DNA of 62,860 bases, filler included, from a bacterium (GTDB lineage Bacteria; UBP18; UBA7526), in NCBI GenBank assembly GCA_030615855.1. It is 5 parts of 5 records of this genome, joined end to end, with 100 filler letters (N's around TTAATTAATTAA, not from the genome) between each part and the next. Parts side by side here need not be neighbours in the genome. Positions count along the whole stretch, not along the records: positions 1 to 22,650 come from JAUWYL010000022.1; 4 more parts are not named here. The stretch is one strand, 5' to 3'. The notes under the pieces were generated by a model. It did no database searches. It was not told where the DNA came from and worked only from the letters and a program-made list of their open reading frames with translations. Positions 1 to 60,377 of the stretch are shown piece by piece. How positions within the stretch are numbered: the first letter of the stretch is position 1; each line of letters opens with the position of its first letter. A program made the position numbers and the translations under genes.

Positions 1-246
1 GACCAGGATTGCACCAGTCAGCCCAATTAAGGGTGCGACTAAGAAACCGGTTCTCCTGCTCCCTTCTGGTAATATGGTCTCTTTACTTAAGAGCTTCAAG
101 ATGTCAGCAAAGGGCTGGTACCAGGGGGGTCCCACCCTCCATTGGATCTTGGCGGTCAGTTTTCTATCTATCCAGGTGGAGAGTAATCCCACTATAGCGG
201 TAAAGATAAAGCCAGGAAAGATAATAAAGTAAAAGATTATTTTCAT
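1..246 (-). CDS. NuoH/HycD-like membrane subunit of group 4 hydrogenase, 5' part (continues at 52959-53780)
   Basis: Manual translation MKIIFYFIIFPGFIFTAIVGLLSTWIDRKLTAKIQWRVGPPWYQPFADILKLLSKE; the R.GPP.QP.AD.LKLL motif is typical of NuoH. Not in the ORF track. Confidence 0.9.
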   Translation of the reverse strand, partial: MKIIFYFIIFPGFIFTAIVGLLSTWIDRKLTAKIQWRVGPPWYQPFADILKLLSKETILPEGSRRTGFLVAPLIGLTGAILV

Positions 247-283
247 CTTCACTTTCCCTCTATTAAATCCGCGTCATCCGTGG

Positions 284-760
284 TTATTCCTTCCTCCAGG
301 GTGTGAGATGGACGAGGAGGTTCTCGCCCACCAGATATTTATTCTTCTTCTCTGTCTCTCTAAACTCTCCATATTTCAAAGCACCATAGGGACAGCTCGG
401 GATACATACTGGCTTCTTTCCGTCTGCCCGATCGATACAGAAGTCACACTTTGAGACAAGATAGGGAATGACCTCGGGATATATGATGCCAAAGGGGCAG
501 GCTAAAGCGCAAGAGCCACAGCCGGTACAGAGTAGATTGCTTCTCTTCAAGGCCCCATCATTCTCCTTCTTCAGGGCTTCCTGGGGGCAAGAGGTGACAC
601 AAGGGGCCTCCTCACATTGGCGACAGACCAAGGCAAAGCTTGCTACTTCTCTTATGGAATCTATTCCCCTGTTGTCAGGATGATAGAAGTAACTACAATC
701 AATGACGCATTCTGGGCACTTAGAGCAGATATCGAGATCGATGAATAATCTCTTTTTCAT
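284..760 (-). CDS. 4Fe-4S dicluster (HycB/DmsB-like) electron-transfer subunit
   Basis: CRQCEEAPCVTSCP, CTGCGSCALACPFG and KCDFC...PVCIPSCP motifs. Confidence 0.85.
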   Translation of the reverse strand: MKKRLFIDLDICSKCPECVIDCSYFYHPDNRGIDSIREVASFALVCRQCEEAPCVTSCPQEALKKENDGALKRSNLLCTGCGSCALACPFGIIYPEVIPYLVSKCDFCIDRADGKKPVCIPSCPYGALKYGEFRETEKKNKYLVGENLLVHLTPWRKE

Positions 761-1513
761 TTAGAAGAACTTCCCTCGTAATTCTCTCAAGGTCTGGAGG
801 TTGCGGGCAGACTGCTTATCCTCAGGATCGATCTCTACTGCCTTTTTGAAGTGTTCCATAGCCTTATCTATGTCTCCCTTATAATAATAAGCGACCCCAA
901 TATAATGGTGGGCAGGAGCCATATCAGGATCCAGGGCTAAGACCTTATTGTACTGCTCAATAGTTTCTTCCAGAAGGCCCTTCCTGGCCAGGGCTGCGGC
1001 CAGATGATAGTGGATGATCTTGAATTCCGGGGCTTTCTTCTCAAAGAGTTTATACATCTCGATGGCTTTATCTAGATCGCCCTTATAGTAATTGACCAGG
1101 CCCAGTCTGAAGTAGGCGATATCGAGGTCGGGGTCTATCTTTATTGCCTTTTGGTATTCAGATAGAGCCTTATCCAACACACCTGCCCTATAGTATACCG
1201 AGCCCAGCTCATAGTGGGCGATGGCAAAGTTAGGATCGAGCCTTATCGTTTTCTTATAATCCCTGATTGCTTTACCCAGTTTCCCCTGATGGTAATAGAC
1301 GTTAGCCAGATCCTTATGAGCTAAGGTATTCTTGGGCTCTATCTCTATCGCTTTCTTATATTCTATAGTAGCCTCCTTTAACTTGCCTACCCGAATATAG
1401 CCCGAGGCTCTATCCATGTAGATTCGCGCACTTGCCTCCTTTAGTTTTGCACCACATTCCTTACAGAACTTGGCATCCCTTGGATTCTTTGTCTTACACC
1501 TGGGACATTTCAT
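761..1513 (-). CDS. Zinc-ribbon plus tetratricopeptide-repeat protein
   Basis: N-terminal CPRC...FCKECG; about six TPR-like units (AI..YKKAI.IDP..A.AH..LG). Confidence 0.85.
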   Translation of the reverse strand: MKCPRCKTKNPRDAKFCKECGAKLKEASARIYMDRASGYIRVGKLKEATIEYKKAIEIEPKNTLAHKDLANVYYHQGKLGKAIRDYKKTIRLDPNFAIAHYELGSVYYRAGVLDKALSEYQKAIKIDPDLDIAYFRLGLVNYYKGDLDKAIEMYKLFEKKAPEFKIIHYHLAAALARKGLLEETIEQYNKVLALDPDMAPAHHYIGVAYYYKGDIDKAMEHFKKAVEIDPEDKQSARNLQTLRELRGKFF

Positions 1514-1528
1514 CTTTCTACCTCCTTT

Positions 1529-2416
1529 TCAAACAAAGGGGTTGGGAACCTCCTTGATCTGACTATATTTAAAGACCGGCCCATCCTTACAGACATAGTA
1601 TCTTCCAATCATGCAGTGGCCACACTGGCCCAATCCACAGGACATATTCCTCTCCATGGAGAGATAGGTATTTTTTGGTGAGTATCCAAGGTCGATGAGC
1701 TTTAGGGTAGTAAACTTCATCATAATGGGTGGGCCACAGACAATGGCAATAGACTTCTTAAGATCGAGAGTAAGATTATTCAATAAGGTGGTAACCAGAC
1801 CAACCCTGCCCCTCCACTTCCTATCCCCCTTATCTACCGTAATGCGCAGCTCCACCCTTTCCTCTTCCCCCCATTTTCTCAGGCCCTTCTTATAGATTAG
1901 GTCTTTCGGGGTGCGAGCTCCATAACAGAGTAGGATCTCTTTATACCTATCTATATCATGCAAAAGGGTCAAGAAGAGGGATCTCAAGGGAGCAAGGCCC
2001 ACCCCTCCTCCTACAATCAGAATCTCCTTCCCCTTAAACTCATCCAGGGGATAGCCAGTACCATAAGGACCCCTCAGGCCAACCTTCTGACCCTTCTTCA
2101 GCTTATGTAATGCTTCGGTAACCCGGCCAACTTTCATTACCGTTACTTCCAGGGTCTCTTTCTCATGGGGAGAAGAGGAAGGAGTAAAGGGGGCTTCCCC
2201 GACACCGGGAACAGTTAGCTGGACAAACTGGCCTGCTTTGAACTCCAGAGGTTCTCTGGGGGATAGGAGGAAAGTCTTTATCTCTGGGGTCTCTCTAATA
2301 ATCTCCTCAATCCTTGCTTCAATGGGCAGGTAAACCTCGTTAGAAGTAATCCGTCCCTTTCGGGATCGGATGCCTCGCCTTTGACGAGGACTTCTAACGG
2401 GGTAAAGATTCCTCAC
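1529..2416 (-). CDS. FAD/NAD(P)-binding 2Fe-2S subunit (sulfhydrogenase gamma / AsrB / PyrK-like)
   Basis: GPYG, VGGGVGLAPL, VCGPPIM and ERNMSCGLGQCGHC...VCKDGPVF motifs. Confidence 0.9.
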   Translation of the reverse strand: MRNLYPVRSPRQRRGIRSRKGRITSNEVYLPIEARIEEIIRETPEIKTFLLSPREPLEFKAGQFVQLTVPGVGEAPFTPSSSPHEKETLEVTVMKVGRVTEALHKLKKGQKVGLRGPYGTGYPLDEFKGKEILIVGGGVGLAPLRSLFLTLLHDIDRYKEILLCYGARTPKDLIYKKGLRKWGEEERVELRITVDKGDRKWRGRVGLVTTLLNNLTLDLKKSIAIVCGPPIMMKFTTLKLIDLGYSPKNTYLSMERNMSCGLGQCGHCMIGRYYVCKDGPVFKYSQIKEVPNPFV

Positions 2417-3435
2417 TTGCTCTCCTCTAATTTCTTGAGTACTTCTCTCATGTCTATCTTGCCCAAACAGCCTTCAACGCACCTTCCGCATCCGGTACAC
2501 ATATAGAGACCAAAGTCATCCTTAAAGTAGTCAAGTTTATGTAAATAGCGATGGCGTAGCCTTTCAGCCAGCCTCGCCCTGGGATTGGCGCCTCCGGCTA
2601 CCTGGGCAAATCCTATATATTGGCAGGAGTCCCACATCCTCATACGATTGAAAGCCCTCTTCTCTTTCTCATCGTATAATAAATAGCAGTGGCAGGTAGG
2701 GCAGATATTGGTGCAGAGTCCGCACTCCACACAATCTCCGGCCTCCTCTTCCCAGAGAGGCGAATCATAATTCTTCTTAACTATCTTTTGATAGGACTTT
2801 TTAGTCTTAAAGGAAGTGTTGGTAGCCTTAAGTAAATTCAAGGTTTTCTTTCTATTCTCCTTCTGCTCCTCTATTTGCTCTCCTGATGGTCGATTAAAGA
2901 AATCCTTAAATCGGGAGATAAGTTCCTCCCCTTTTTCGCTTCCCACTTCAACTAAAAAGCTCTCTTTTAGGGGGGAAAGGTTGAGATCGAAGCCCTTTCT
3001 CGGATAGGGCTCAAGATCTACTAGATTGCAGAAACAGGCATCCTTGGGTTTAGTACAGTCACTACTTATTAGGATGGTGTTCTTCCTCTCTTTTAGATAG
3101 AAAGGCTCTTTATATTCGCCCTCTATAAATACCTTATCCAGGATCTCCAGGGATTGTAAATCGCAGGCCTTCACCCCCAGGAAAATTCTTAGGCCTTCAC
3201 CCTTTTTTATTCTGGAAGGAGAAGGATAAGTAGCCACCCTCTGATTGAGGGAAAAGAAGTAAACCTTCAGGGGCCCAATGGTCCTCACTTCTCCTAAGAT
3301 TATCTCCTCCTCAGATATAAACTTTTGATAGACGAGGTTGCCATTAATCTCTTTTGGATGGTAGAGGGGAGCTTCCTGGGATAGCCTCTCTACCCAGCGC
3401 CTAAAATTTATTTTAGAAAGATAATGAACATCCAT
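2413..3435 (-). CDS. 4Fe-4S subunit (sulfhydrogenase beta / AsrA-like)
   Basis: GVKACD, CFC, CVECGLCTNICPTCHC, WDSC and CTGCGRCVEGC motifs. Confidence 0.9.
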   Translation of the reverse strand: MDVHYLSKINFRRWVERLSQEAPLYHPKEINGNLVYQKFISEEEIILGEVRTIGPLKVYFFSLNQRVATYPSPSRIKKGEGLRIFLGVKACDLQSLEILDKVFIEGEYKEPFYLKERKNTILISSDCTKPKDACFCNLVDLEPYPRKGFDLNLSPLKESFLVEVGSEKGEELISRFKDFFNRPSGEQIEEQKENRKKTLNLLKATNTSFKTKKSYQKIVKKNYDSPLWEEEAGDCVECGLCTNICPTCHCYLLYDEKEKRAFNRMRMWDSCQYIGFAQVAGGANPRARLAERLRHRYLHKLDYFKDDFGLYMCTGCGRCVEGCLGKIDMREVLKKLEESK

Positions 3436-3521
3436 AAAAGTCTCTTTCGAAATAGTCTGTGCTTTTTGGAGTCTTTTCCAAAAGCAACGTTAAGTTTAAC
3501 GTTGCCATTTTTTCACAAACT

Positions 3522-4184
3522 TTATCTTCCTCTCCTACTTAAAAAGAATGAGAGATTCTCAAGTTTTAAGGAAAGATCGACATTACTCAGTCTGACATCT
3601 TTAGGTACGGATATTCTTGCGGGAGCAAAGTTTAAAATGGCCTTTATTCCTGCCTTGGTTAATAGATTAGCCACCTCCTGGGCTGCAGGAGCAGGCACGG
3701 TAATGATCCCTATCTCGGTTCTTTCCTTTCGGATGATGGGCTTTAACTGGGTGATATCGTGGATCACTATTCCTGCCCACTTTTTACCAATCTTCTTGGG
3801 ATCGTTATCGAAGACAGCAACGATATAAAATCCCTGTCTTTTAAAGCCTTTATAGGCCAGAAGAGCGCTCCCTAAATTTCCCACCCCTATCAGGGCTACC
3901 TTCCACTTCCTGGTCAGGCCCAGAATCTTCTGGATCTCTCTCTTAAGCTTTGTTGTTTCATATCCCATCCCTGGTTTACCGAACTGGCCAAAAAGGCTTA
4001 AGTCCTTCCTCACCTGGCTATCGTTTATATCCAACTCCTCTGCTAACTGATAGGAGGCAGTATTATCAAAACCCATCCTCCCCAGTTCATCTAAGACCCG
4101 GAGATAACTGGATAATCGAGCAATGGTTGTTTCTGGTATTTTGGTTTTCCTCACCAACTTTTCCTCACCAGTATCCTTCCCCAT
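3522..4184 (-). CDS. rex: Redox-sensing transcriptional repressor Rex (true start possibly GTG at 4154)
   Basis: IPETTIARLSSY, SQVRKDLS.FGQFG..G.GY, GVGNLG and ILNFAP motifs. Confidence 0.95.
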   Translation of the reverse strand: MGKDTGEEKLVRKTKIPETTIARLSSYLRVLDELGRMGFDNTASYQLAEELDINDSQVRKDLSLFGQFGKPGMGYETTKLKREIQKILGLTRKWKVALIGVGNLGSALLAYKGFKRQGFYIVAVFDNDPKKIGKKWAGIVIHDITQLKPIIRKERTEIGIITVPAPAAQEVANLLTKAGIKAILNFAPARISVPKDVRLSNVDLSLKLENLSFFLSRRGR

Positions 4185-4187
4185 AGT

Positions 4188-4243
4188 TTGTGAATTTTTT
4201 CACAAAGTTAGGAAAAAAGAAGAGTTTGTGAAATTTTTCACAA
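4188..4243. promoter_or_regulatory. Two Rex operators (4188-4205, 4226-4243)
   Basis: TTGTGAA-TTTT-TTCACAA and TTGTGAA-ATTT-TTCACAA match the Rex consensus TTGTGAA-N4-TTCACAA. Confidence 0.9.
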
Positions 4244-4288
4244 AGTTAGGAAAAAATATATATTGACTTAGGTAAGTCAATATAAATA

Positions 4289-4317
4289 ACATTAACATAC
4301 TATTTGGGGTTTGTCAA
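4289..4317 (-). promoter_or_regulatory. Candidate sigma70 promoter for the rex operon
   Basis: TTGACA-17 nt-TAATGT on the minus strand, upstream of the Rex boxes. Confidence 0.45.
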
Positions 4318-52958: not shown

Positions 52959-53780
52959 TGGAGGGTGGGACCCCCCTGGTACCAGCCCTTTGCTGACATC
53001 TTGAAGCTCTTAAGTAAAGAGACCATATTACCAGAAGGGAGCAGGAGAACCGGTTTCTTAGTCGCACCCTTAATTGGGCTGACTGGTGCAATCCTGGTCT
53101 CTACTATGCTCTGGAGATTGAACCTTGCTCCTGAAGTGACCTTCATTGGAGATCTGATCGTAGTTCTCTACCTCCTCATCCTCCCTTCTTTGGCGGTAAT
53201 CATCGGCGGCTCTGCCTCTGCCAACCCTTTAGGGGCTACCGGGGCCAGCCGAGAGATGAAATTGGTCCTGGCCTATGAGCTACCTTTCTTGATCGCTATG
53301 TTCACTGCCGTGGTAAGTGCAGGGGGGAGCATTAAGATTGGAGAGATCCTAAATTATCAAGCGGCTAACGGTCTTATCTTGGGCAGTCTCTCCGGGGCAA
53401 TGGCCTTTATCGTCTCTTTACTCTGCATTCAGGCGAAGTTGACCTTCATTCCCTTTGACATCCCGGAGGCAGAGACGGAGATCATGGCTGGCCCACATAT
53501 CGAATACTCTGGGCCGGCCTTGGCAGCCTTCAAGTTGACCCGGGCCATGATGCTCTTCGTCCTACCCGTCTTTCTCATCACCATCTTCTGGAGAGGACTC
53601 TCCTTTTCGGGAATGAATGCCCTATGGACTATTCTCAAGTATCTCGCTATTTTAGTTATTATTATTTTAATAAAGAATACCAATCCCCGCGTAAGGATCG
53701 ACCAAGCTCTGAAATTTTTCTGGTTCCCGGTAACAGGATTGGCTATTCTGGGGATGATTCTGGCCCTTTTTGGAAAATAA
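52959..53780 (+). CDS. NuoH/HycD-like hydrogenase membrane subunit (5' end is at window 1-246, minus strand)
   Basis: PFDIPEAETEI.AG..IEYSG, PRVRIDQ; joined ORF is 308 aa. Confidence 0.92.
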   Translation, partial: WRVGPPWYQPFADILKLLSKETILPEGSRRTGFLVAPLIGLTGAILVSTMLWRLNLAPEVTFIGDLIVVLYLLILPSLAVIIGGSASANPLGATGASREMKLVLAYELPFLIAMFTAVVSAGGSIKIGEILNYQAANGLILGSLSGAMAFIVSLLCIQAKLTFIPFDIPEAETEIMAGPHIEYSGPALAAFKLTRAMMLFVLPVFLITIFWRGLSFSGMNALWTILKYLAILVIIILIKNTNPRVRIDQALKFFWFPVTGLAILGMILALFGK

Positions 53781-53798: not shown

Positions 53799-54536
53799 AT
53801 GCATATTCCAGATGGGTTTCTATCGAGAAATATCTGCGGAGCAATGGGAATGGTTGCTCTGGCAGTGATTAGCTATTGTATCCGAAGGGCTCGGGCAATG
53901 CTCTTTGAGAAAGTAAAGGTTCTAAAGACAAAATTAGTTACTGCCCAAGGGCCGGGCGTGGGAAAATACTCTACTAAGAGTATCTTGAGCGCTCTGGGCA
54001 GAAAGAAGGCATCCTTGATGGGAGTAGTGGGAGGATTTGTCTTCGCCGCTCAGATGCTCAACTTTCCTGTCAAGTATGGAACGAGTGGCCATCTGGTAGG
54101 TGGAGTACTAGCCGCTATTTTATTGGGGCCTTTTGAGGCAGCGATAGTAATGACCATCATTTTGGCCGTTCAGGCCTTCCTCTTCGCAGATGGTGGGATC
54201 TTCGCCTTAGGGGCAAACATATTCAATATGGGAATCCTTGCTACCGTGGGAGGATACTATCTTTATTATTTCCTAAAGAAAATTCTGTCTGGAAAGAGAG
54301 GGATGCTATTTTCTGCCTTTATTGCTGCCTGGCTCTCTGTGGTATCAGCTTCCATTGCCTGCTCTTTTGAGTTAGGATTTAGCAGGACCTATCCCTTATC
54401 CCGAACCTTGCCCGCTATGGTCAATCTCCATATCTTGATCGGCCTCTGCGAGGCCTTGATTACCGTTGGAATATTAACTCTCCTCTTAAAAGTTAAGCCG
54501 GAACTACTCAAAGAGGAGGTGGGAGATGAGACTTAA
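53799..54536 (+). CDS. CbiM/NikM ECF substrate-binding component (Ni/Co)
   Basis: MHIPDGFL N-terminus, AAQMLNFP..GTSGHL.G and QA..FADGG..ALGAN. Confidence 0.92.
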   Translation: MHIPDGFLSRNICGAMGMVALAVISYCIRRARAMLFEKVKVLKTKLVTAQGPGVGKYSTKSILSALGRKKASLMGVVGGFVFAAQMLNFPVKYGTSGHLVGGVLAAILLGPFEAAIVMTIILAVQAFLFADGGIFALGANIFNMGILATVGGYYLYYFLKKILSGKRGMLFSAFIAAWLSVVSASIACSFELGFSRTYPLSRTLPAMVNLHILIGLCEALITVGILTLLLKVKPELLKEEVGDET

Positions 54537-54813
54537 GTGGTATCATCTGGGGTTGATTATCTCTTTACTTTTAGCCGGGTTTCTATCTCCCTTTGCTTCC
54601 TCTCTTCCCGATGGCCTGGAAAAGGTGGCAGAGGATTTGGGTTTTATAGAAAAGGGGAAGGTTATCCTCTCCTCACCCCTGGCTGACTATCTCTTTCCCG
54701 GAATAGAGAGTGAGAGATTAGCTACCTCCTTAGCCGGAATAATCGGGGTATTATTAGTGTCTGGTTTGGCCTGGAAATTGGAGAGACTTCTTATTAAGGG
54801 AATAAAGGAATGA
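54526..54813 (+). CDS. PDGLE-domain protein (NikN/CbiN-like)
   Basis: ASSLPDGLEKVA, PLADY, two TM helices. Confidence 0.9.
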   Translation: MRLKWYHLGLIISLLLAGFLSPFASSLPDGLEKVAEDLGFIEKGKVILSSPLADYLFPGIESERLATSLAGIIGVLLVSGLAWKLERLLIKGIKE

Positions 54814-55063
54814 ATCCCGCCCCTCTTTCCTTAAACCGACAAAATAATTCTATAGAAAGTTCAAATATCTTTCTCGAGGTATCGGAATTTGAATAAATTC
54901 CGATACCGAGGATTAGAAGGTCTGGGGGAAAGAATCTGCTTACTCCCAGGGGGTGACAGGGAATTTTTCCGAACTATTGCAGGAAAAATTCCCGCCAGAG
55001 GGGCAAAGCCCCTATGGAAGTATTCCCGAAGGGGATATCTTGGGCAAGGAGGGGCGGGATGAA
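54810..55063. mobile_element. TIR element at the PDGLE / small-subunit junction with a hairpin-rich interior
   Basis: atgaatcccgcccctc...gaggggcgggatgaa. Confidence 0.72.
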
Positions 55064-55475
55064 ACTAAAGGATTGGGCCTTTAAAAAATCCCCCTGGATA
55101 TTCCATCTCGGCGCCGGCTCCTGTAACAACTGCGACATCGAGCTTTTAGACTGTATCACACCGAAGTTCGATGTGGAGAGGTTTGGAATTCTACTGGTGG
55201 GTAGCCCGAGACATGCCGATTGCCTGGTAATCACTGGAATTGTCACCAAGAAGGTTCTCCCCAGACTCAAGAGAGTCTATAAGCAGACCCCAGATCCAAA
55301 GATAGTTATCGCTGTGGGTGCTTGTGCCTGTTCTGGGGGAATCTTTCGGGATGGTTACAATATGGCGGGACCAGTGGATAGGGTTATTCCCGTAGATGTC
55401 TATATCCCGGGTTGCCCTCCCAAGCCAGAGGCCATTATCTCAGGAATAGTTAAGGCTTTGGGGGACATGAAATGA
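55059..55475 (+). CDS. Group 4 [NiFe]-hydrogenase small subunit (NuoB-like)
   Basis: GSCNNCDIE, SPRHAD, VGACA.SGG.F and YIPGCPP; start trimmed to MKLKDW. Confidence 0.93.
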   Translation: MKLKDWAFKKSPWIFHLGAGSCNNCDIELLDCITPKFDVERFGILLVGSPRHADCLVITGIVTKKVLPRLKRVYKQTPDPKIVIAVGACACSGGIFRDGYNMAGPVDRVIPVDVYIPGCPPKPEAIISGIVKALGDMK

Positions 55476-55903
55476 AAGAGGATGTAGTCAAAGAGATTAA
55501 GAAAAAGTTTTCTGAAGGAATAAAAGATTTTCAAGAGAAATCAAAGAAGAGGGTATACTTTACCATTGATAAGAAGGATCTCTTAGGGGTGATAGAATAT
55601 CTCTTTAATAATCTTGAAGCACGTTTTATCACCGAGACTGGTCTAGATACTCGAGCAGGAATAGAGATTTTGTATCACTTCTCCTTTGATGAATTAGATA
55701 AGATAGTTACTATTCGTACTCTGTTAGATCGGAAGAAACCAGAAGTAGAATCTGTCGTTTCCATTATCAAAGGCGCAGAGTGGATTGAAAGGGAAATATA
55801 CGATATCCTGGGAGTGAGGTTCAAGAATCATCCCAACCTGAAGAGGTTCATCCTGGCCGAGGATTGGCCCAAGGGAAAGTATCCTTATCGGAAGGTGAAA
55901 TAG
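55472..55903 (+). CDS. NuoC-like hydrogenase subunit
   Basis: ILYHF, A.WIEREI.D.LG..F..HPN. Confidence 0.9.
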   Translation: MKEDVVKEIKKKFSEGIKDFQEKSKKRVYFTIDKKDLLGVIEYLFNNLEARFITETGLDTRAGIEILYHFSFDELDKIVTIRTLLDRKKPEVESVVSIIKGAEWIEREIYDILGVRFKNHPNLKRFILAEDWPKGKYPYRKVK

Positions 55904-57106
55904 ATGGCAGAGAAGAAAAGGACCATAATTCCTATCGGTCCCTACCATCCCCTGCAAGAGGAGCCAGAGTTCTTCCTCCTGGGAGTAGAAGGGGAGAAGG
56001 TAGTGGACATCGAATGGAAGACAGGATATAACCATCGGGGGATAGAGAGGATAGCTGAGACCAAGTCCTATGACCAGGTTACTTTCCTGGTGGAGAGGGT
56101 CTGCGGAATCTGTTCTACCTCTCACCCCATAGCCTACTGCAATGCCATGGAGGATTTGGCGGGTATCGAGATCCCGGAGAGGGCAAAGTATATCCGGAGC
56201 ATTATTGCTGAACTGGAGAGGATCCATAGCCATCTCCTCTGGGTGGGATTGGCCGGACACTTCTTAGGTTACAATACGGTCTGGATGTGGTCCTGGAAGT
56301 ATCGGGAACCGGTCCTGGATATCATGGAGGCCATAAGCGGTAACCGGCAGAACTATGCCATGCTGAAGATAGGAGGGGTGAGGAGGGACATCGAGGAGAG
56401 TGACATCCCAAAGATTCTAAAGATGGTGGAAAAGCTAGTTCCTAACTTAGATCTCTTGACTGGTGCGATAACCGATGATCCAGTACTCCATGTTCGATTG
56501 AAGGGAGTAGGAATTCTGACCAAAGAGGAGGCCCGGAACTATGGGGCAACCGGACCCACTGCCCGGGCAAGTGGACTTCCCTTTGATGCGCGCCGGGATT
56601 CTCCCTACGCTGCCTATGATTTAGTGGACTGGAAGGTCATTACCCGCCAGGAGGGGGATGTCTTCGCCAAGGTAGTGGTAAGATTACTGGAGATGTACGA
56701 GTCGGTGAAGATCATCAAAGAGTGCCTGATGAGATTGAGAAAGGTAAAGACAGAAATCGCCATTAAGGTGGAGGAGATTCCTCCTGGAGAGGGGATCGGC
56801 CATCCCGAAGCACCCCGGGGAGAGGTATTTCACTATATCCGCTCAGACGGAACCAATCGGCCAGTGCGGCATAAGATAAGGGCGCCCAGTTTTTGTAATG
56901 TCCCCACCTTCCGGGCCACGGTCATAGGAGAGACGATATCCGATGCCACCATAATATTGGCTGCAGTAGACCCCTGCTATTGCTGTACCGAGAGGATGGC
57001 GGTGGTGGATAAGAGAACGGGAAAGAAGGAAATGAATGGTTTCGATCTCATTAGGCTATCTCAAGAGAAGACTAAGGATTTGAGAAGAAAGATGTTGGGG
57101 AAATGA
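55904..57106 (+). CDS. Group 4 [NiFe]-hydrogenase large subunit
   Basis: GPYHP, L1 RVCGIC, EAPRGE, L2 DPCYCCTER plus a C-terminal extension. Confidence 0.92.
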   Translation: MAEKKRTIIPIGPYHPLQEEPEFFLLGVEGEKVVDIEWKTGYNHRGIERIAETKSYDQVTFLVERVCGICSTSHPIAYCNAMEDLAGIEIPERAKYIRSIIAELERIHSHLLWVGLAGHFLGYNTVWMWSWKYREPVLDIMEAISGNRQNYAMLKIGGVRRDIEESDIPKILKMVEKLVPNLDLLTGAITDDPVLHVRLKGVGILTKEEARNYGATGPTARASGLPFDARRDSPYAAYDLVDWKVITRQEGDVFAKVVVRLLEMYESVKIIKECLMRLRKVKTEIAIKVEEIPPGEGIGHPEAPRGEVFHYIRSDGTNRPVRHKIRAPSFCNVPTFRATVIGETISDATIILAAVDPCYCCTERMAVVDKRTGKKEMNGFDLIRLSQEKTKDLRRKMLGK

Positions 57107-58908
57107 ACGCGCTCCTTTATCCTATAGTTTTACCTTTGGTAGCTGGTACTATATCTTTTATCATCCCTAAAAAGCGAAAAGCTTATCTTTACCTGTTAGC
57201 CTTTGCCACATCCTTAGCCACCCTTCTGGTGGCTATTTATCTATTCATGAATCGACCATTATCCTGGCAACTGAATGACTTCACCATTTTAAGGGTGGAC
57301 AGTCTTTCCAGCTTCATACTGCTGGCCATCGCTCTCTTTGGTTTCCTCATCATCCTCTATTCCCTTCGCTATATGGGAGAGAAGCAGGGATTAAAAGTAT
57401 ATTATGCTAATCTATTATGGACCATTGGAGCGGCCTGCGGAGTAGTCCTATCAAATAATCTGATTCTTTTCTTAACATTTTGGGGATTCTTGGGGATTAC
57501 TCTATATCTTCTCATAAATCTTGGGGGGGAAGAAGCGGCTTATGCCGCGAAGAAGACCTTCATTATTATTGGCGGCTCAGACGCTTTAATACTCCTGGGC
57601 ATAGCAATCATCTGGCAACTTACCGGGTCTTTCCAGATGGACGGAATAAGTATATCTTTAAATGGAGGATTGCCCCTCCTGGCCTATCTCTCTTTGGCCA
57701 TAGGGGCCTTTGCCAAGGCAGGGGCCATGCCCTTTCACACCTGGATTCCTGATATGGCCGAGAGCGCACCGGTCTCAGTCACCGCATTCCTGCCGGCATC
57801 ATTGGATAAGTTGTTGGGTATCTATCTCTTGGCCAGGATCTCATTAAATCTCTTTATAATGAATAAGGCCCTGGGTTTGGTTTTATTAATAGTTGGGGCA
57901 GTAACCATTATTGCTGCAGTGATGATGGCCTTGATCCAGCACGACTTGAAGAGACTCCTCTCTTACCATGCAGTATCCCAAGTGGGTTATATGGTTTTAG
58001 GTATTGGAACAGGCAACCCGATAGGCATTGCTGGTGGTTTATTCCACATGTTGAATCATGCTATCTATAAAGGCTGTCTTTTCTTATGTGGTGGCGGCGT
58101 AGAACATCAAACAAGAACCTCGAACCTAAATAAATTGGGTGGATTAGCCAAGGCCATGCCCATTACCTTCGTTACCTGCCTAATAGCCGCCCTATCCATA
58201 TCTGGCATTCCTCCCTTCAATGGCTTCGTCTCCAAGTGGATGGTCTATCAGGGTGTGATTGAACTTGGGAAGACTGGGGATAGACTATGGGTTATATGGC
58301 TAATAGCCGCTATGTTTGGTTCTGCCTTGACTTTAGCCAGCTTTATGAAGTTAATTCACGCTATATTCTTAGGCCAACGAGCTAAAGAATTAGCAGGCAA
58401 ACGAATCACTGAAGTCCCCTGGACCATGTGGCTTCCTATGGTGATTTTAGCTGGTCTCTGCATTCTTTTTGGGGTATTCGCTATATCAGTGCCCCTAAGA
58501 CATTTTATCCTTCCTGCGGTAGAAGGCGTCTCATTCTTAGGGTTCTGGTCACCAGCCTTAGCCACCCTTTTGATCATCATAGGCATCATAATTGGGCTCA
58601 TTCTTTATGGTATAAGTAACTTGAGACTGAATTTAAGGAGGGACACCAGTTTTATCGGAGGGGAAGTAATCCCTGATGAATATCGAGTTAGCGGGGTTGA
58701 TTTCTATAATACGGTAAAGGAACTTTCACCCCTCAAAGGGATCTACAAAAAGGCAGAAGATAAATTCTTCGATATCTATGACCAAGGCAAAAGACTCACC
58801 CTCTTCTTTACCCGTCGACTTCAACATTTACATAGTGGGATACTTCCCACATATTTGGTCTGGTGCTTAGTGGGAATGCTCGTCCTATTCTTCGTTTTAA
58901 TGAGGTAA
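57103..58908 (+). CDS. Antiporter-like proton-pumping subunit (HyfB/MrpD/NuoL family)
   Basis: KAGAMPFHTWIP, KRLLSYHAVSQVGY, NHAIYK and GIPPFNGFVSK. Confidence 0.9.
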   Translation: MNALLYPIVLPLVAGTISFIIPKKRKAYLYLLAFATSLATLLVAIYLFMNRPLSWQLNDFTILRVDSLSSFILLAIALFGFLIILYSLRYMGEKQGLKVYYANLLWTIGAACGVVLSNNLILFLTFWGFLGITLYLLINLGGEEAAYAAKKTFIIIGGSDALILLGIAIIWQLTGSFQMDGISISLNGGLPLLAYLSLAIGAFAKAGAMPFHTWIPDMAESAPVSVTAFLPASLDKLLGIYLLARISLNLFIMNKALGLVLLIVGAVTIIAAVMMALIQHDLKRLLSYHAVSQVGYMVLGIGTGNPIGIAGGLFHMLNHAIYKGCLFLCGGGVEHQTRTSNLNKLGGLAKAMPITFVTCLIAALSISGIPPFNGFVSKWMVYQGVIELGKTGDRLWVIWLIAAMFGSALTLASFMKLIHAIFLGQRAKELAGKRITEVPWTMWLPMVILAGLCILFGVFAISVPLRHFILPAVEGVSFLGFWSPALATLLIIIGIIIGLILYGISNLRLNLRRDTSFIGGEVIPDEYRVSGVDFYNTVKELSPLKGIYKKAEDKFFDIYDQGKRLTLFFTRRLQHLHSGILPTYLVWCLVGMLVLFFVLMR

Positions 58909-58912
58909 CTAA

Positions 58913-59437
58913 ATGCTTGAACTGTATATCCTTTCATTGCTCATGATTATAGGTGCCATAATTGCCGTAGAGATTAAGGATCTATTATCCTCAGTCATTG
59001 CTGTAGGTGCCGTGGGATTAGTGCTATCAGTTACCTTCCTTATATTAAAGGCGCCAGATTTAGCCATTACTCAGTTAGTAGTAGAGCTTTTATGTCTAAT
59101 TATTTTGATTCAGGCAACAATTAAGAGAGGTATTCCGCGGGTTATAAGCAGACAGAGTTTTCTTACTATATTTGTGACCTTAACCTTTATTGGTCTATTT
59201 TTAGCATTTGCTTATTCTTCCTTAAGAGACCTACCCCAGTTTGGCCATCCCATAATGAGGGTGGCTAACCATTACTTAGAAGAGGGCTTAAATAAAACCG
59301 GAGCAACCAATCTGGTGGCTTCAGTGATCTTAGATTTTCGTGCTTATGACACCTTGGGTGAGGCAACAGTACTCTTTACCGCAGTGATTGGAGTCCTGGC
59401 AGTTTTGAGAAAAATCGGAAGGAAGAAAACCCCATGA
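58913..59437 (+). CDS. MbhD/MbhE-like (DUF4040 plus MrpA C-terminal) subunit
   Basis: APDLAITQ, NLVASVILDFRAYDTLGE. Confidence 0.88.
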   Translation: MLELYILSLLMIIGAIIAVEIKDLLSSVIAVGAVGLVLSVTFLILKAPDLAITQLVVELLCLIILIQATIKRGIPRVISRQSFLTIFVTLTFIGLFLAFAYSSLRDLPQFGHPIMRVANHYLEEGLNKTGATNLVASVILDFRAYDTLGEATVLFTAVIGVLAVLRKIGRKKTP

Positions 59438-59901
59438 GACAAAAAAATCTGCGTAATCAGCGATCAGGAATGACACTAATTGTAAAGACAATTACCCGTC
59501 TAACCATCGGACTAATTCTTTTGTTCGGCATCTATATCGTCCTGCACGGACATATTACACCCGGGGGTGGCTTTGCTGGAGGAGTAATTATCGCTTTATC
59601 CTTTATTCATCTGATGCTTGCTTTTGGAAAGGATCTGGCTCTGAAGAAGTTAAGCGAGGTTCAGGCTTCTTTCTTTGAGAGCCTGGGTGCCATTATGTTT
59701 TTGACTATTGCTATTCTGGGTTTTGTGGGTGGATACTTCTTCCTCAATTTCTTCTCAGATAAAGGAGAGCCCTTTAGACTCTTTAGCGCCGGGATTATTC
59801 CTTTATGTAATGTCGCCATATGTTTTAAGGTGGGAGCGGGATTATTTGCCATCTTTGCAGCTCTGGTCTTCCTAAAGATAGGTTCAGGAGAGGAGAAATG
59901 A
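59434..59901 (+). CDS. MrpB/MnhB (MbhF-like) subunit (start possibly 59470)
   Basis: HGHITPGGGFAGG. Confidence 0.9.
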   Translation: MRQKNLRNQRSGMTLIVKTITRLTIGLILLFGIYIVLHGHITPGGGFAGGVIIALSFIHLMLAFGKDLALKKLSEVQASFFESLGAIMFLTIAILGFVGGYFFLNFFSDKGEPFRLFSAGIIPLCNVAICFKVGAGLFAIFAALVFLKIGSGEEK

Positions 59902-60236
59902 TAATCTACTTCATGTGCCTGATTCTTTTCTGTGTTGGTCTATACGCTATTTTGGTAAAGAGGAACCTCATTAAGATTATCATTGGCATAATAATAACCG
60001 AATATGCAGTTAACTTATTCTTTATCTTAGTTGCCTACCGCTCGAAAGGTCGGGCACCGATATTAGCACCAGATCAGATAGTCAAGAATATGGTCGATCC
60101 CCTGCCTCAAGCGCTGGTCTTAACTGCCATTGTTATCGGCCTGGCCGTGACTGCCTTGATAGTCTCCATTGCGGTAAGAGTCTATGAAAAATATGGTACT
60201 TTTGATATTACCAAAATTAGGAGATTAAAAGGATGA
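59898..60236 (+). CDS. MrpC/MnhC (MbhG-like) subunit
   Basis: RNLIKIIIG, DPLPQALVLTAIVIG. Confidence 0.92.
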   Translation: MIIYFMCLILFCVGLYAILVKRNLIKIIIGIIITEYAVNLFFILVAYRSKGRAPILAPDQIVKNMVDPLPQALVLTAIVIGLAVTALIVSIAVRVYEKYGTFDITKIRRLKG

Positions 60237-60377
60237 ACCTATTGCCCCTCTTCGTGGCTATACCATTGGGTACTGCATTTCTGGTCTCTCTTTTTGGAAA
60301 AAGAGTAAAGAATTTTTCTGATTCTTTATCCAATTTAGCCACCCTTTCCTTACTTCTCCTTTCTTTATTTTCCATAT
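60233..60377 (+). CDS. Probable MrpD/MbhH subunit, 5' fragment
   Basis: Hydrophobic start LLPLFVAIPL..AF, coupled to mrpC; truncated by the gap. Confidence 0.6.

What the first reader, a model, noticed from the sequence alone, without database searches (positions are those of the whole stretch)
1..4243. Rex-controlled Mrp-type group 4 [NiFe]-hydrogenase with its own NAD(P)H diaphorase module
Seen after the join: rex, sulfhydrogenase beta-like, gamma-like (FAD/NAD/2Fe-2S), TPR, HycB-like, NuoH, CbiM, PDGLE, NuoB, NuoC, large subunit with both CxxC, antiporter subunit, MbhD/E, MrpB, MrpC, MrpD. All are co-oriented and mostly tightly coupled. Known: beta/gamma pairs normally serve soluble group 3b hydrogenases or Asr reductase, whereas Mbh/Ech use ferredoxin, and Rex senses NADH/NAD+. 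No group 3b alpha/delta or AsrC gene is in the visible operon. Inference: an ion-translocating H2:NAD(P)+ oxidoreductase, either conserving energy from H2 to NAD(P)+ or using the ion gradient to make H2 from NAD(P)H.
Basis: partly seen in the sequence, partly recalled or inferred. Interest (0 to 1): 0.85.

Follow-up and report, generated by a model that had tools for sequence, protein, structure and literature searches.

The report
Rex-controlled Hun membrane hydrogenase operon
This is a real operon, split over three contigs, for the already published but never purified "Hun" membrane nickel-iron hydrogenase; here its flavoprotein module and its NADH-sensing repressor suggest that it burns NAD(P)H rather than only ferredoxin.

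Summary
The window is a chain of MAG contigs. Contig C22 (window 1-22650) and C28 (52959-60377) share an exact 141-base end overlap, and C28 overlaps off-window C40 in the same way. Both joins give intact genes. The same gene order lies on single contigs in 42 of 42 related loci with enough upstream DNA.

The operon runs rex, hunA/B (sulfhydrogenase beta/gamma-like), a TPR gene, hunC, hunD, cbiM, a PDGLE gene, hunE-hunP, then hycI and hypAFCDE. No group 3b, AsrC or second hydrogenase was found in the genome.

It is not a new kind. It is the "Hun" complex of Glass et al. 2021 (HydDB group 4g there), also called "Mbh-Mrp-oxidoreductase". The large subunit carries Hun's CGIC/CYCC signature. This scan reached the same verdict on other genomes.

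The papers I read assume ferredoxin as donor or call the module's function unknown. Two results favour an NAD(P)H link, but do not prove it. The gamma subunit keeps an invariant nucleotide-binding motif. Two perfect Rex boxes precede the operon, and 21 of 43 relatives have a box upstream of hunA.

Particular to this genome are the TPR and Ni/Co-transporter insertions and an in-frame palindromic insert in hunB.

The parts
4226..4243 (.). Distal Rex operator, a perfect match to TTGTGAA-N4-TTCACAA
   Evidence: 0 mismatches. Only two perfect sites occur in the 1.375 Mb genome.
4188..4205 (.). Proximal Rex operator, a perfect match, ending 4 nt upstream of the rex ATG
   Evidence: The two boxes sit in a 38-nt direct repeat. 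A relative in run X3 has about one unit less here (joint 4170->4223).
4253..4280 (-). Sigma-70-like promoter (TTGACT, 16-nt spacer, TATTTT) just upstream of the Rex boxes
   Evidence: a consensus match only, 9 of 12 positions.
3522..4184 (-). rex, redox-sensing repressor (220 aa)
   Evidence: NF003995 271 bits (cut-off 126) and NF003993 263.5 bits (cut-off 217). Put_DNA-bind_N plus CoA_binding domains.
3484..3505 (.). 9-bp palindromic hairpin between rex and hunA, a possible attenuator
   Evidence: It was flagged as terminator-like on the + strand only. On the operon strand only 4 T follow it.
2413..3435 (-). hunA, sulfhydrogenase-beta/AsrA-like Fe-S protein (340 aa, 15 Cys)
   Evidence: Fer4_22, 1.1e-30; 9NEZ_B, 7.5e-44; below the equivalog cut-offs of ShyB, HydB and AsrA; the invariant columns among 33 homologues include 15 Cys.
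1529..2416 (-). hunB, sulfhydrogenase-gamma/AsrB-like FAD/NAD(P)/[2Fe-2S] flavoprotein (295 aa)
   Evidence: FAD_binding_6, NAD_binding_1 and DHODB_Fe-S_bind; 9NEZ_C, 5.2e-59. G137, G138, G140, P143 and C260, C265, C268, C276 are invariant in 33 sequences.
2331..2402 (-). In-frame insert of about 72 nt, palindromic and MITE-like, in the 5' end of hunB. It adds about 24 Arg-rich residues.
   Evidence: sequence; folds at -39.7 kcal/mol, with partial matches on C21 and C30; one search gave about 70 nt at 81-83% identity at the same places; contigs of X2, X3 and X4 skip 2327-2402.
761..1513 (-). Zinc-ribbon plus TPR protein (250 aa) inserted between hunB and hunC
   Evidence: No hit at this place in 65 loci or 3 more. 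An X3 contig joins 760->1554 without it.
284..760 (-). hunC, HycB/CooF-like polyferredoxin (158 aa, 16 Cys in four 4Fe-4S-type motifs)
   Evidence: Fer4_11. HDCR HycB3/4 and FHL HycB (7Z0S_B, 9.4e-11)..
1..252 (-). hunD (NuoH/MbhM-like), N-terminal 84 residues. The last 47 are encoded by the 141-nt overlap.
   Evidence: NADHdh profile positions 8-81..
52959..53780 (+). hunD, remainder (the joined ORF is 310 aa)
53799..54536 (+). CbiM/NikM-type metal-transporter S component, inserted between hunD and hunE
   Evidence: No hit in 65 + 3 related loci.
54526..54813 (+). PDGLE-domain (CbiN/NikN-like) partner of CbiM
   Evidence: No CbiQ was found in the genome.
55014..55475 (+). hunE, NuoB-type small subunit
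55472..55903 (+). hunF, NuoC-type subunit
55904..57106 (+). hunG, group 4 [NiFe] large subunit (400 aa). L1 is CGIC and L2 is CYCC, followed by a C-terminal tail.
   Evidence: sequence. MbhL 6CFW_L, 1.8e-90. CGIC in 61 of 61 and CYCC in 58 of 61 homologues.
57103..58908 (+). hunH, NuoL/MbhH-like antiporter subunit (601 aa)
58913..59437 (+). hunI, fused MbhD/MbhE (MrpA C-terminus-like)
59434..59901 (+). hunJ, MrpB-like
59898..60236 (+). hunK, MrpC/NuoK-like
60233..60377 (+). hunL (MrpD-like) N-terminus. The gene continues on C40 (L005 13511-14998, minus strand). hunM-P, hycI and hypAFCDE follow there, off the window.

Best explanation
This is a complete Hun-type operon (hunA-P), that is, a membrane-bound, Mrp-linked group 4 [NiFe] hydrogenase.

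Shown here:
- The operon is contiguous across three contigs.
- It carries all 16 Hun subunits plus maturation genes.
- It is the only hydrogenase found in the genome.
- Two perfect Rex operators sit in front of it, and rex is its first gene.

Inferred mechanism:
- HunB (FAD, [2Fe-2S]) oxidises NAD(P)H.
- Electrons pass through the Fe-S clusters of HunA, the four clusters of HunC (HycB-like), HunP (NuoI/HycF-like) and HunE, and reach the Ni-Fe site of HunG, where H2 is made. The layout resembles formate hydrogenlyase with the formate dehydrogenase replaced by a beta/gamma diaphorase.
- The HunD/H-O membrane arm couples the reaction to H+/Na+ movement.
- Rex releases the operon when NADH/NAD+ rises, so the enzyme would act as an NADH relief valve.

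My own calculation from standard potentials (-320 and -414 mV): NADH->H2 costs +18 kJ/mol at 1 atm H2, but yields about -10 kJ/mol at 1 Pa H2. At sediment-type H2 levels it could therefore pump ions. At higher H2 the ion gradient would drive it, or it would run backwards.
For: Joins:
- Exact 141-nt overlaps.
- Intact ORFs across both joins.
- Full-length alignment to homologues.

Conserved linkage:
- 42 of 42 loci with more than 5 kb upstream of the large subunit have beta+gamma+HycB+NuoH co-oriented.
- 41 of 44 loci with more than 8.5 kb downstream have the Mrp set plus NuoI.

HunB:
- 5.2e-59 to the gamma subunit of P. furiosus sulfhydrogenase I.
- Glycine-rich GGGVGLAP motif (GxGxxP type) and four [2Fe-2S] Cys conserved (G137, G138, G140, P143 and the four Cys invariant in 33 sequences).

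HunC and HunP:
- Both resemble FHL's HycB and HycF.

No other partner in the genome:
- One NiFe large subunit.
- No FeFe hydrogenase.
- No AsrC over the cut-off, 31.9 against 324 bits.
- One Fer4_22 protein.
- All hun genes are single-copy.

Rex:
- Two 0-mismatch boxes sit just downstream of a promoter-like site.
- The genome has only 4 other sites with 2 or fewer mismatches.
- 21 of 43 related loci have a box with 2 or fewer mismatches within 500 nt upstream of hunA, and 17 of 43 have one with 1 or fewer. The other 821 kb of those loci hold 5 sites.
- 200 dinucleotide shuffles gave a mean of 0.185 loci and a maximum of 2.

Metabolic setting:
- GAPDH (an NADH source), Rnf and 2-oxoacid:ferredoxin oxidoreductases are present.
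Against: - No biochemistry exists for any Hun enzyme.
- Glass et al. read HunAB as accepting electrons from ferredoxin.
- HunP keeps the MbhN-like subunit that takes ferredoxin in Mbh, so ferredoxin input is not excluded.
- Rex regulons cover fermentation genes in general, including enzymes that also use ferredoxin (passage in PMC5317091). Rex control therefore shows a link to NADH balance, not the substrate.
- 22 of 43 relatives have no Rex box at 2 or fewer mismatches.
- Only 6 of 65 loci, plus 2 of 3 further loci, have rex nearby.
- A hairpin lies between rex and hunA.
- NADH->H2 is uphill under standard conditions.
- NADH versus NADPH cannot be told from sequence here.
- The two same-genus genomes (75% and 83% complete) gave no hit.
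Confidence: 0.6

Rival explanations
1. Ferredoxin-driven Hun, as published. HunABC only relay electrons from reduced ferredoxin to the Ni-Fe site, and the nucleotide domain of HunB is vestigial or regulatory.
For: This is the reading of Glass et al.. Williams et al. read group 4g Mbh the same way. Ferredoxin-producing oxidoreductases are present. HunP is MbhN/HycF-like.
Against: The nucleotide-binding glycine motif of HunB is invariant in 33 sequences from many phyla, which argues against a vestige. Rex boxes lie upstream of hunA in 21 of 43 loci. Mbh itself needs no beta/gamma/HycB module.
Confidence: 0.2
2. Mainly an uptake enzyme. H2 reduces NAD(P)+ while ions are pumped, supplying reductant and energy, for example in H2-consuming or acetogen-like lifestyles.
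For: The reaction is exergonic at high H2 (my own calculation). Elusimicrobia that carry this type were predicted to be acetogens. Group 4 enzymes are reversible in principle.
Against: Rex derepresses when NADH is high. That fits NADH disposal, not NADH production (logic quoted). At sediment H2 levels, uptake to NAD+ would be endergonic.
Confidence: 0.12
3. HunAB is a separate soluble NAD(P)H:ferredoxin oxidoreductase. It is co-expressed with an ordinary ferredoxin-dependent Mbh-type hydrogenase but is not bound to it.
For: Nothing here shows physical contact. Co-transcription alone would also fit a functional pair.
Against: The strict gene order hunA-hunB-hunC-hunD holds in 42 of 42 loci. HunC is a HycB/CooF-type connector, which in FHL bridges an input enzyme to the hydrogenase. 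NADH->ferredoxin is strongly uphill without bifurcation.
Confidence: 0.07
4. The join is an assembly or binning artefact, and the beta/gamma genes belong to another organism.
For: The contigs were broken by the assembler at this point. The partner beyond window position 1 was not seen directly in reads.
Against: The overlaps are exact 141-mers and are unique among the ends of the 45 contigs. The ORFs are intact. The order is identical on single contigs in 42 of 42 loci. In family member G005, hunC sits right upstream of hunD on one contig.
Confidence: 0.01

Closest known systems
Hun Ni-Fe hydrogenase-Na+/H+ antiporter supercomplex, HunA-P (Glass et al. 2021, bioRxiv 10.1101/536078; passages read)
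   Same: - The same 16 subunit types in the same order.
- AsrA/B-like HunAB, with no AsrC.
- CGIC/CYCC motifs in HunG.
- One of the paper's own example genomes (UBA9627) is my locus L047, with 69% large-subunit identity and the same synteny.
   Different: - Here rex is the first gene, with two perfect operators.
- Three extra genes are inserted (TPR, CbiM, PDGLE).
- hunB carries an in-frame palindromic insert.
- The host is a member of a 6-genome GTDB phylum.
- My reading of the donor (NAD(P)H) differs from theirs (ferredoxin).
'Mbh-Mrp-oxidoreductase type' group 4 hydrogenase of Elusimicrobia (10.1101/765248) and the 'enigmatic' Saganbacteria hydrogenase with asrA, asrB and cooF (PMC6349859)
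   Same: The same operon family. Many of my 65 related loci are from Elusimicrobia.
   Different: Those papers state that the function of the oxidoreductase module is unknown. Some of their variants hold a molybdopterin protein between hunB and hunC, which is absent here.
Pyrococcus furiosus membrane-bound hydrogenase Mbh (PDB 6CFW; called HydDB group 4d from recall)
   Same: It is the best solved match of the large subunit (1.8e-90). It has an Mrp-type membrane arm with MbhD/E, MbhH and MbhM equivalents, and an MbhN-like subunit.
   Different: Mbh has no beta/gamma flavoprotein and no HycB-like subunit, and it takes ferredoxin. The L2 motif differs according to Glass et al. (CYCC here).
E. 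coli formate hydrogenlyase (PDB 7Z0S)
   Same: It is the second-best match of the large subunit (3.7e-85). It has the same HycB-like -> HycF-like -> small subunit -> large subunit wiring, HycI processing, and a C-terminal tail on the large subunit.
   Different: The input enzyme there is the formate dehydrogenase FdhF; here it is beta/gamma. The membrane arm there is Hyc-type, not a full Mrp set.
Group 3b sulfhydrogenase SHI/SHII (PDB 9NEZ) and the anaerobic sulfite reductase AsrABC
   Same: HunA and HunB are homologues of their beta/gamma and AsrA/AsrB subunits.
   Different: There is no alpha/delta and no AsrC in the operon or genome. HunA and HunB score below all four equivalog cut-offs. 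Some relatives carry a separate beta/gamma set with a small-subunit-like and a protease-like hit next to hun (L021; beta/gamma only in L055). I read this as a group 3b set; it was not checked further.

Membership tests
Hun complex (Glass et al. 2021) | Operon with the HunA-P subunit types in order: AsrA-like, AsrB-like, polyferredoxin, NuoH, NuoB, NuoC, large subunit, NuoL-like, MrpA-C-terminus/B/C/D/E/F/G-like, NuoI-like | tested here: met
   all 16 are present and co-oriented across C22/C28/C40. Three non-Hun genes are inserted.
Hun complex (Glass et al. 2021) | HunG metal-site motifs: L1 CGIC and L2 CYCC | tested here: met
   for the window protein. CGIC in 61 of 61 and CYCC in 58 of 61 homologues, with CYSC in the other 3.
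Hun complex (Glass et al. 2021) | AsrC absent from the operon | tested here: met
   for the operon. for the genome: best hit 31.9 bits against a cut-off of 324.1.
Hun complex (Glass et al. 2021) | Relatedness to the paper's own examples | tested here: met
   UBA9627 is named in the Fig. 3 legend and is locus L047. The reference protein RXG63129 itself was not on hand.
HydDB group 4g | Classification of the large subunit by the HydDB classifier | not testable with these tools
   HydDB is not available here. Group 4g is taken from Glass et al. for HunG.
Group 4 [NiFe] hydrogenase, as opposed to Ehr/Mbx/complex I | Both CxxC pairs for Ni-Fe, a dedicated endopeptidase, and hyp genes | tested here: met
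   (CGIC, CYCC, C-terminal tail). (HycI, HypA/F/C/D/E). HypB was not looked for.
Group 3b sulfhydrogenase | Alpha and delta subunits partnering beta/gamma | tested here: not met
   the genome's only PF00374 match is the group 4 large subunit; beta and gamma score below the ShyB/HydB and HydG/ShyC cut-offs.
Anaerobic sulfite reductase AsrABC | AsrC sirohaem subunit; AsrA/B at equivalog level | tested here: not met
   no AsrC. TIGR02910 scores 142.7 against 323.15, and TIGR02911 scores 238 against 288.6.
Rex-regulated operon | A Rex protein plus an operator TTGTGAANNNNTTCACAA at the promoter | tested here: met
   (Rex over the cut-offs). (two perfect boxes 4-60 nt upstream of the rex ATG). (promoter-like site just upstream). 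The consensus is as quoted from Ravcheev 2012 in PMC5317091. Binding was not tested.
NAD(P)H-dependent flavoprotein (FNR/PyrK/HydG type) | FAD- and NAD(P)-binding domains with a GxGxxP motif, and a C-terminal [2Fe-2S] with four Cys | tested here: met
   Actual nucleotide binding and specificity are not testable here.

The most novel reading that the evidence does not exclude
Hun is in fact an NADH:proton oxidoreductase. In this reading it has a complex-I-like scaffold that independently recruited a non-NuoEFG NAD(P)H module, and it is switched on by Rex when NADH accumulates.

Small-genome fermenters that have it as their only hydrogenase could then vent glycolytic NADH as H2 and still pump ions at the low H2 of sediments. 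With Rnf this would give two coupling sites between ferredoxin and H2. Published ferredoxin-only models for many candidate phyla would be wrong.
Probability: 0.5. Interest if true: 0.6.

Novelty: new member of a known kind. Interest (0 to 1): 0.35.

Why it matters
Hun-type operons occur in many uncultured anaerobic phyla. My 65 related loci include Elusimicrobiota, Omnitrophota, Cloacimonadota, Aerophobota, WOR-3, Bacteroidota, Planctomycetota, Verrucomicrobiota and Actinomycetota.

The metabolic models in the papers I read treat the enzyme as a ferredoxin sink, or leave the function of its extra module open. If it takes NAD(P)H, the hydrogen and energy budgets inferred for these organisms change.

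It would also be a second, independent way of attaching an NADH-oxidising module to a complex-I-type ion pump.

For this window alone the gain is modest. The finding adds a clean Rex-operator case, a carrier in a very small phylum, and three lineage-specific insertions.

Tried and rejected
- **Complex prediction of HunA+HunB+HunC** (33-row alignments, partner HunC). After many queue-full answers the job ran. The result was 'no answer', score 0.00, and the controls were not folded. It says nothing either way.
- **Expression.** No RNA holder was listed for window 1-4300.
- **Laying Logan contigs of four DNA runs**. This could not show what lies beyond window position 1, only that contigs go on.
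- **Paper searches.**
  - A search for a paper on the 9NEZ sulfhydrogenase structure found nothing.
  - Searches for later work on Hun found no biochemical study and no NAD(P)H proposal. The 2024 Atribacterota cultivation paper does not use the word Hun.
  - Subscription-journal papers are outside the library.
- **TPR, CbiM and PDGLE as parts of the complex.** Rejected. There were no hits at these places in 65 + 3 related loci (thresholds of at least 50% or 40% query coverage). One unrelated TPR hit lay at the edge of L061.
- **The third-best Rex-like site in the genome** (1 mismatch, C34:1069-1086). It precedes a DUF123/MOSC, lipoyl synthase and lipoate ligase cluster. No clear link to NADH was found, and I left it.
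- **Large-subunit tree**. Only the quick tree was obtained, because the careful search did not finish. It places the window protein in a 9-row clade (SH-aLRT 97) with Aerophobota, Bacteroidota, Cloacimonadota and unnamed MAGs. I used it only descriptively.
- **NADH versus NADPH preference from sequence.** Considered, and judged not decidable.

Full report
**What the window is.**
The 62,860 bases are not one molecule. They hold five contigs of a 1.375-Mb, 45-contig MAG (93.6% complete), separated by N/TTAATTAATTAA spacers. These are C22 (window 1-22650), C24, C25, C28 (52959-60377) and the first 2383 bases of C44.

The first 141 bases of C22 are the exact reverse complement of the first 141 bases of C28. 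The last 141 bases of C28 match the end of C40, which is not in the window. Many contig ends in this MAG overlap in this way.

I extended it to reverse-complemented C40, fetched as L005.

**Is the join real?**
When the three contigs are joined in memory, both junctions fall inside intact ORFs: a 310-aa NuoH-like gene and a 497-aa MrpD-like gene.
- The joined NuoH aligns in a single HSP across the junction in 55 of 58 related loci with a hit.
- The joined MrpD does so in 42 of 63.

The large subunit found 65 related loci in public genomes, at 53-79% identity.
- Of these, 42 have more than 5 kb upstream of the large subunit. All 42 carry beta, gamma, HycB-like and NuoH-like genes upstream, co-oriented and in this order.
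- The other 23 loci have 5 kb or less upstream. Three still hold all four genes; in the rest, the genes detected before the contig end fit the same order.
- Downstream, 41 of 44 loci with more than 8.5 kb have the antiporter set plus a NuoI-like gene.
- Two Elusimicrobia loci (L026, L032) lack the Mrp set, and L057 lacks two of its genes.

Logan contigs of two runs run on beyond window position 1. I regard the join as settled.

**Gene content.**
The order, all on one strand, is:
- rex;
- hunA (sulfhydrogenase-beta/AsrA-like);
- hunB (gamma/AsrB-like; FAD, NAD and [2Fe-2S] domains);
- a zinc-ribbon/TPR protein;
- hunC (HycB/CooF-like, 16 Cys in four cluster motifs);
- hunD (NuoH);
- CbiM;
- a PDGLE protein;
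- hunE (NuoB);
- hunF (NuoC);
- hunG (large subunit);
- hunH (NuoL/MbhH-like);
- hunI (MbhD/E);
- hunJ to hunO (MrpB to MrpG);
- hunP (NuoI/HycF-like, with two extra CxxC pairs);
- HycI, HypA, HypF, HypC, HypD and HypE.

That makes 26 co-oriented genes over about 20.6 kb. Unrelated genes follow.

The best solved matches are:
- MbhL (6CFW, 1.8e-90) and then HycE (7Z0S) for the large subunit;
- the beta and gamma subunits of P. furiosus sulfhydrogenase I (9NEZ) for HunA and HunB;
- HycB-type proteins for HunC;
- HycF and MbhN, among full-length matches, for HunP.

**Are the usual partners of beta/gamma anywhere?**
None was found. In the whole assembly:
- the only PF00374 match is hunG;
- there is no FeFe hydrogenase;
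- no AsrC reaches the cut-off, 31.9 against 324 bits;
- there is only one Fer4_22 protein;
- every hun gene is single-copy, and there is no separate complex I or Mrp.

The genome is 93.6% complete, so absence is not proven.

**It is a known kind.**
Notes of this scan on other genomes pointed me to Glass et al. 2021. I read passages of that paper.
- It names a 16-subunit 'Hun' Ni-Fe hydrogenase-Na+/H+ antiporter supercomplex in Atribacteria, Firmicutes, Omnitrophica, Elusimicrobia, Bacteroidetes and Kosmotoga.
- HunAB are AsrA/B-like and AsrC is missing.
- HunG is classed as HydDB group 4g and carries CGIC and CYCC motifs.

The window's large subunit has exactly CGIC and CYCC. Among the complete homologues, 61 of 61 have CGIC and 58 of 61 have CYCC. 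One of the paper's example genomes, UBA9627, is my locus L047.

Other papers hold the same operon under other names:
- an 'enigmatic' hydrogenase with asrA, asrB and cooF in Saganbacteria (passages);
- the 'Mbh-Mrp-oxidoreductase type' whose oxidoreductase 'function is unknown' in Elusimicrobia (passages);
- 'Group 4g Mbh, Mrp-linked' in Antarctic-lake MAGs, which is probably the same operon; those passages do not list the beta/gamma genes (passages).

All of these either assume ferredoxin as donor or leave the donor open. In eight searches I found no biochemical study and no printed NAD(P)H proposal. Papers outside the library could hold one.

**Evidence on the donor.**
HunB keeps a full FNR/PyrK-type build. 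In an alignment of 33 HunB sequences, the glycines and proline of the nucleotide-binding GGGVGLAP motif and the four [2Fe-2S] cysteines are invariant. HunB is about half identical, by eye, to the gamma subunit of sulfhydrogenase I. From my own knowledge, that enzyme is NADP(H)-dependent.

The regulator adds a second line.
- Two perfect matches to the Rex consensus TTGTGAA-N4-TTCACAA lie at 4188-4205 and 4226-4243, between a promoter-like site and the rex start codon. The consensus is as quoted from Ravcheev 2012 in PMC5317091.
- They are the only perfect sites in the genome. One site has 1 mismatch and three have 2.
- In relatives, 21 of 43 loci examined have a box with 2 or fewer mismatches within 500 nt upstream of hunA. 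Of these, 17 have 1 or fewer mismatches and 5 are perfect.
- The other 821 kb of those loci hold only 5 such sites. Two of the five precede a rex gene that itself precedes hunA.
- Dinucleotide shuffles of the upstream regions gave a mean of 0.185 loci and a maximum of 2 in 200 trials.

Rex control of Hun is thus widespread but not universal: 22 of 43 loci show no box. It ties expression to the NADH/NAD+ ratio. It does not identify the substrate, because Rex regulons include enzymes that also use ferredoxin.

**Mechanism proposed.**
What is shown is the parts list, the conserved order, the cofactor motifs and the operators. The electron path and its coupling are inferred:
- NAD(P)H reduces the FAD and [2Fe-2S] of HunB.
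- Electrons pass to the HunA clusters, the four HunC clusters, HunP and HunE, and reach the Ni-Fe site in HunG.
- This is the wiring of formate hydrogenlyase with a diaphorase in place of the formate dehydrogenase, mounted on an Mbh/Mrp-type membrane arm.

From standard potentials (my calculation), NADH->H2 is +18 kJ/mol at 1 atm H2 and about -10 kJ/mol at 1 Pa.
- At low H2 the enzyme could export ions.
- At higher H2 the gradient would have to drive it, or it would run in reverse.

The genome also has GAPDH, Rnf and 2-oxoacid:ferredoxin oxidoreductases. Ferredoxin electrons could therefore reach Hun through Rnf and NADH.

I put this reading at about 0.6. The published ferredoxin reading gets about 0.2, mainly-uptake about 0.12, and a detached HunAB about 0.07.

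**What is particular to this genome.**
- The host belongs to a GTDB phylum with only six species genomes in one family, each 0.8-1.4 Mb. The Hun large subunit was found in 2 of the 6.
- In the family member G005, the operon lacks the CbiM/PDGLE insertion, and hunB appears to abut hunC without the TPR gene.
- TPR, CbiM and PDGLE gave no hits at these places in the 65 loci. A contig in run X3 joins 760 to 1554, skipping the TPR gene.
- hunB carries an in-frame palindromic insert of about 72 nt that relatives in three runs lack. It has two further copies in the genome.

**Verdict.**
This is a new member of a known, biochemically untested family. Interest is moderate to low for this window alone. 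The open question of the donor, NAD(P)H or ferredoxin, is worth an experiment.

Noticed in passing
window 2331-2402 (minus strand), inside hunB: An insert of about 72 nt, palindromic and MITE-like, with 9-nt inverted ends and flanking 6-nt direct repeats. It lies in frame near the 5' end of hunB and adds about 24 Arg-rich residues. It folds at -39.7 kcal/mol. Related copies lie on C21 and C30. Contigs of runs X2-X4 lack it.
   Followed up: partly
window 761-1513 (minus strand): A zinc-ribbon/TPR gene is wedged exactly between hunB and hunC and abuts the hunC start. It is absent at this place in 68 related loci and in an X3 contig. Loose ends at position 760 in X1, X2 and X4 suggest that co-occurring relatives lack it.
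   Followed up: partly
window 53799-54813 (+): A CbiM plus PDGLE (NikMN-like) metal-uptake pair sits inside the hydrogenase operon, between hunD and hunE. It is unique among 68 loci. No CbiQ (ECF T component) was found in the 93.6%-complete genome.
   Followed up: partly
window 4186-4262: The two Rex boxes lie in a 38-nt tandem direct repeat. A relative at high depth in run X3 has about one unit less (joint 4170->4223 with 15 other letters).
   Followed up: partly
L026 and L032 (Elusimicrobia RIFOXYA2 MAGs): Hun-like operons with hunA-G followed directly by the NuoI-like gene, HycI and HypA. The Mrp/antiporter set is missing. This looks like a short form of the complex.
   Followed up: no
L058, L060, L061, L062, L070: A gap of about 1.5-2.5 kb lies between hunB and hunC. 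It probably holds the molybdopterin-domain protein that Glass et al. and Matheus Carnevali et al. mention. I did not annotate it.
   Followed up: no
L021 425-4900; L055 809-2400: A second beta/gamma pair lies just upstream of the hun operon. In L021 it is followed by a small-subunit-like and a protease-like hit. It looks like a group 3b set, so Hun and group 3b would each keep their own beta/gamma.
   Followed up: no
L006 5903-7762: hunA and hunB lie in the same reading frame, separated by a single stop codon.
   Followed up: no
L005 4445-5424 (minus strand; G000:C40): An aldo/keto reductase is split into 82-aa and 184-aa ORFs. This may be a frameshift or a pseudogene.
   Followed up: no
G000:C34:1069-1086 (L074): The only other Rex-like site with 1 mismatch in the genome. 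It lies about 100 nt upstream of a DUF123/MOSC, lipoyl synthase and lipoate ligase cluster.
   Followed up: partly
whole genome G000: The MAG belongs to a GTDB phylum represented by only six species genomes in one family, each 0.8-1.4 Mb. G000 is the most complete of them.
   Followed up: partly
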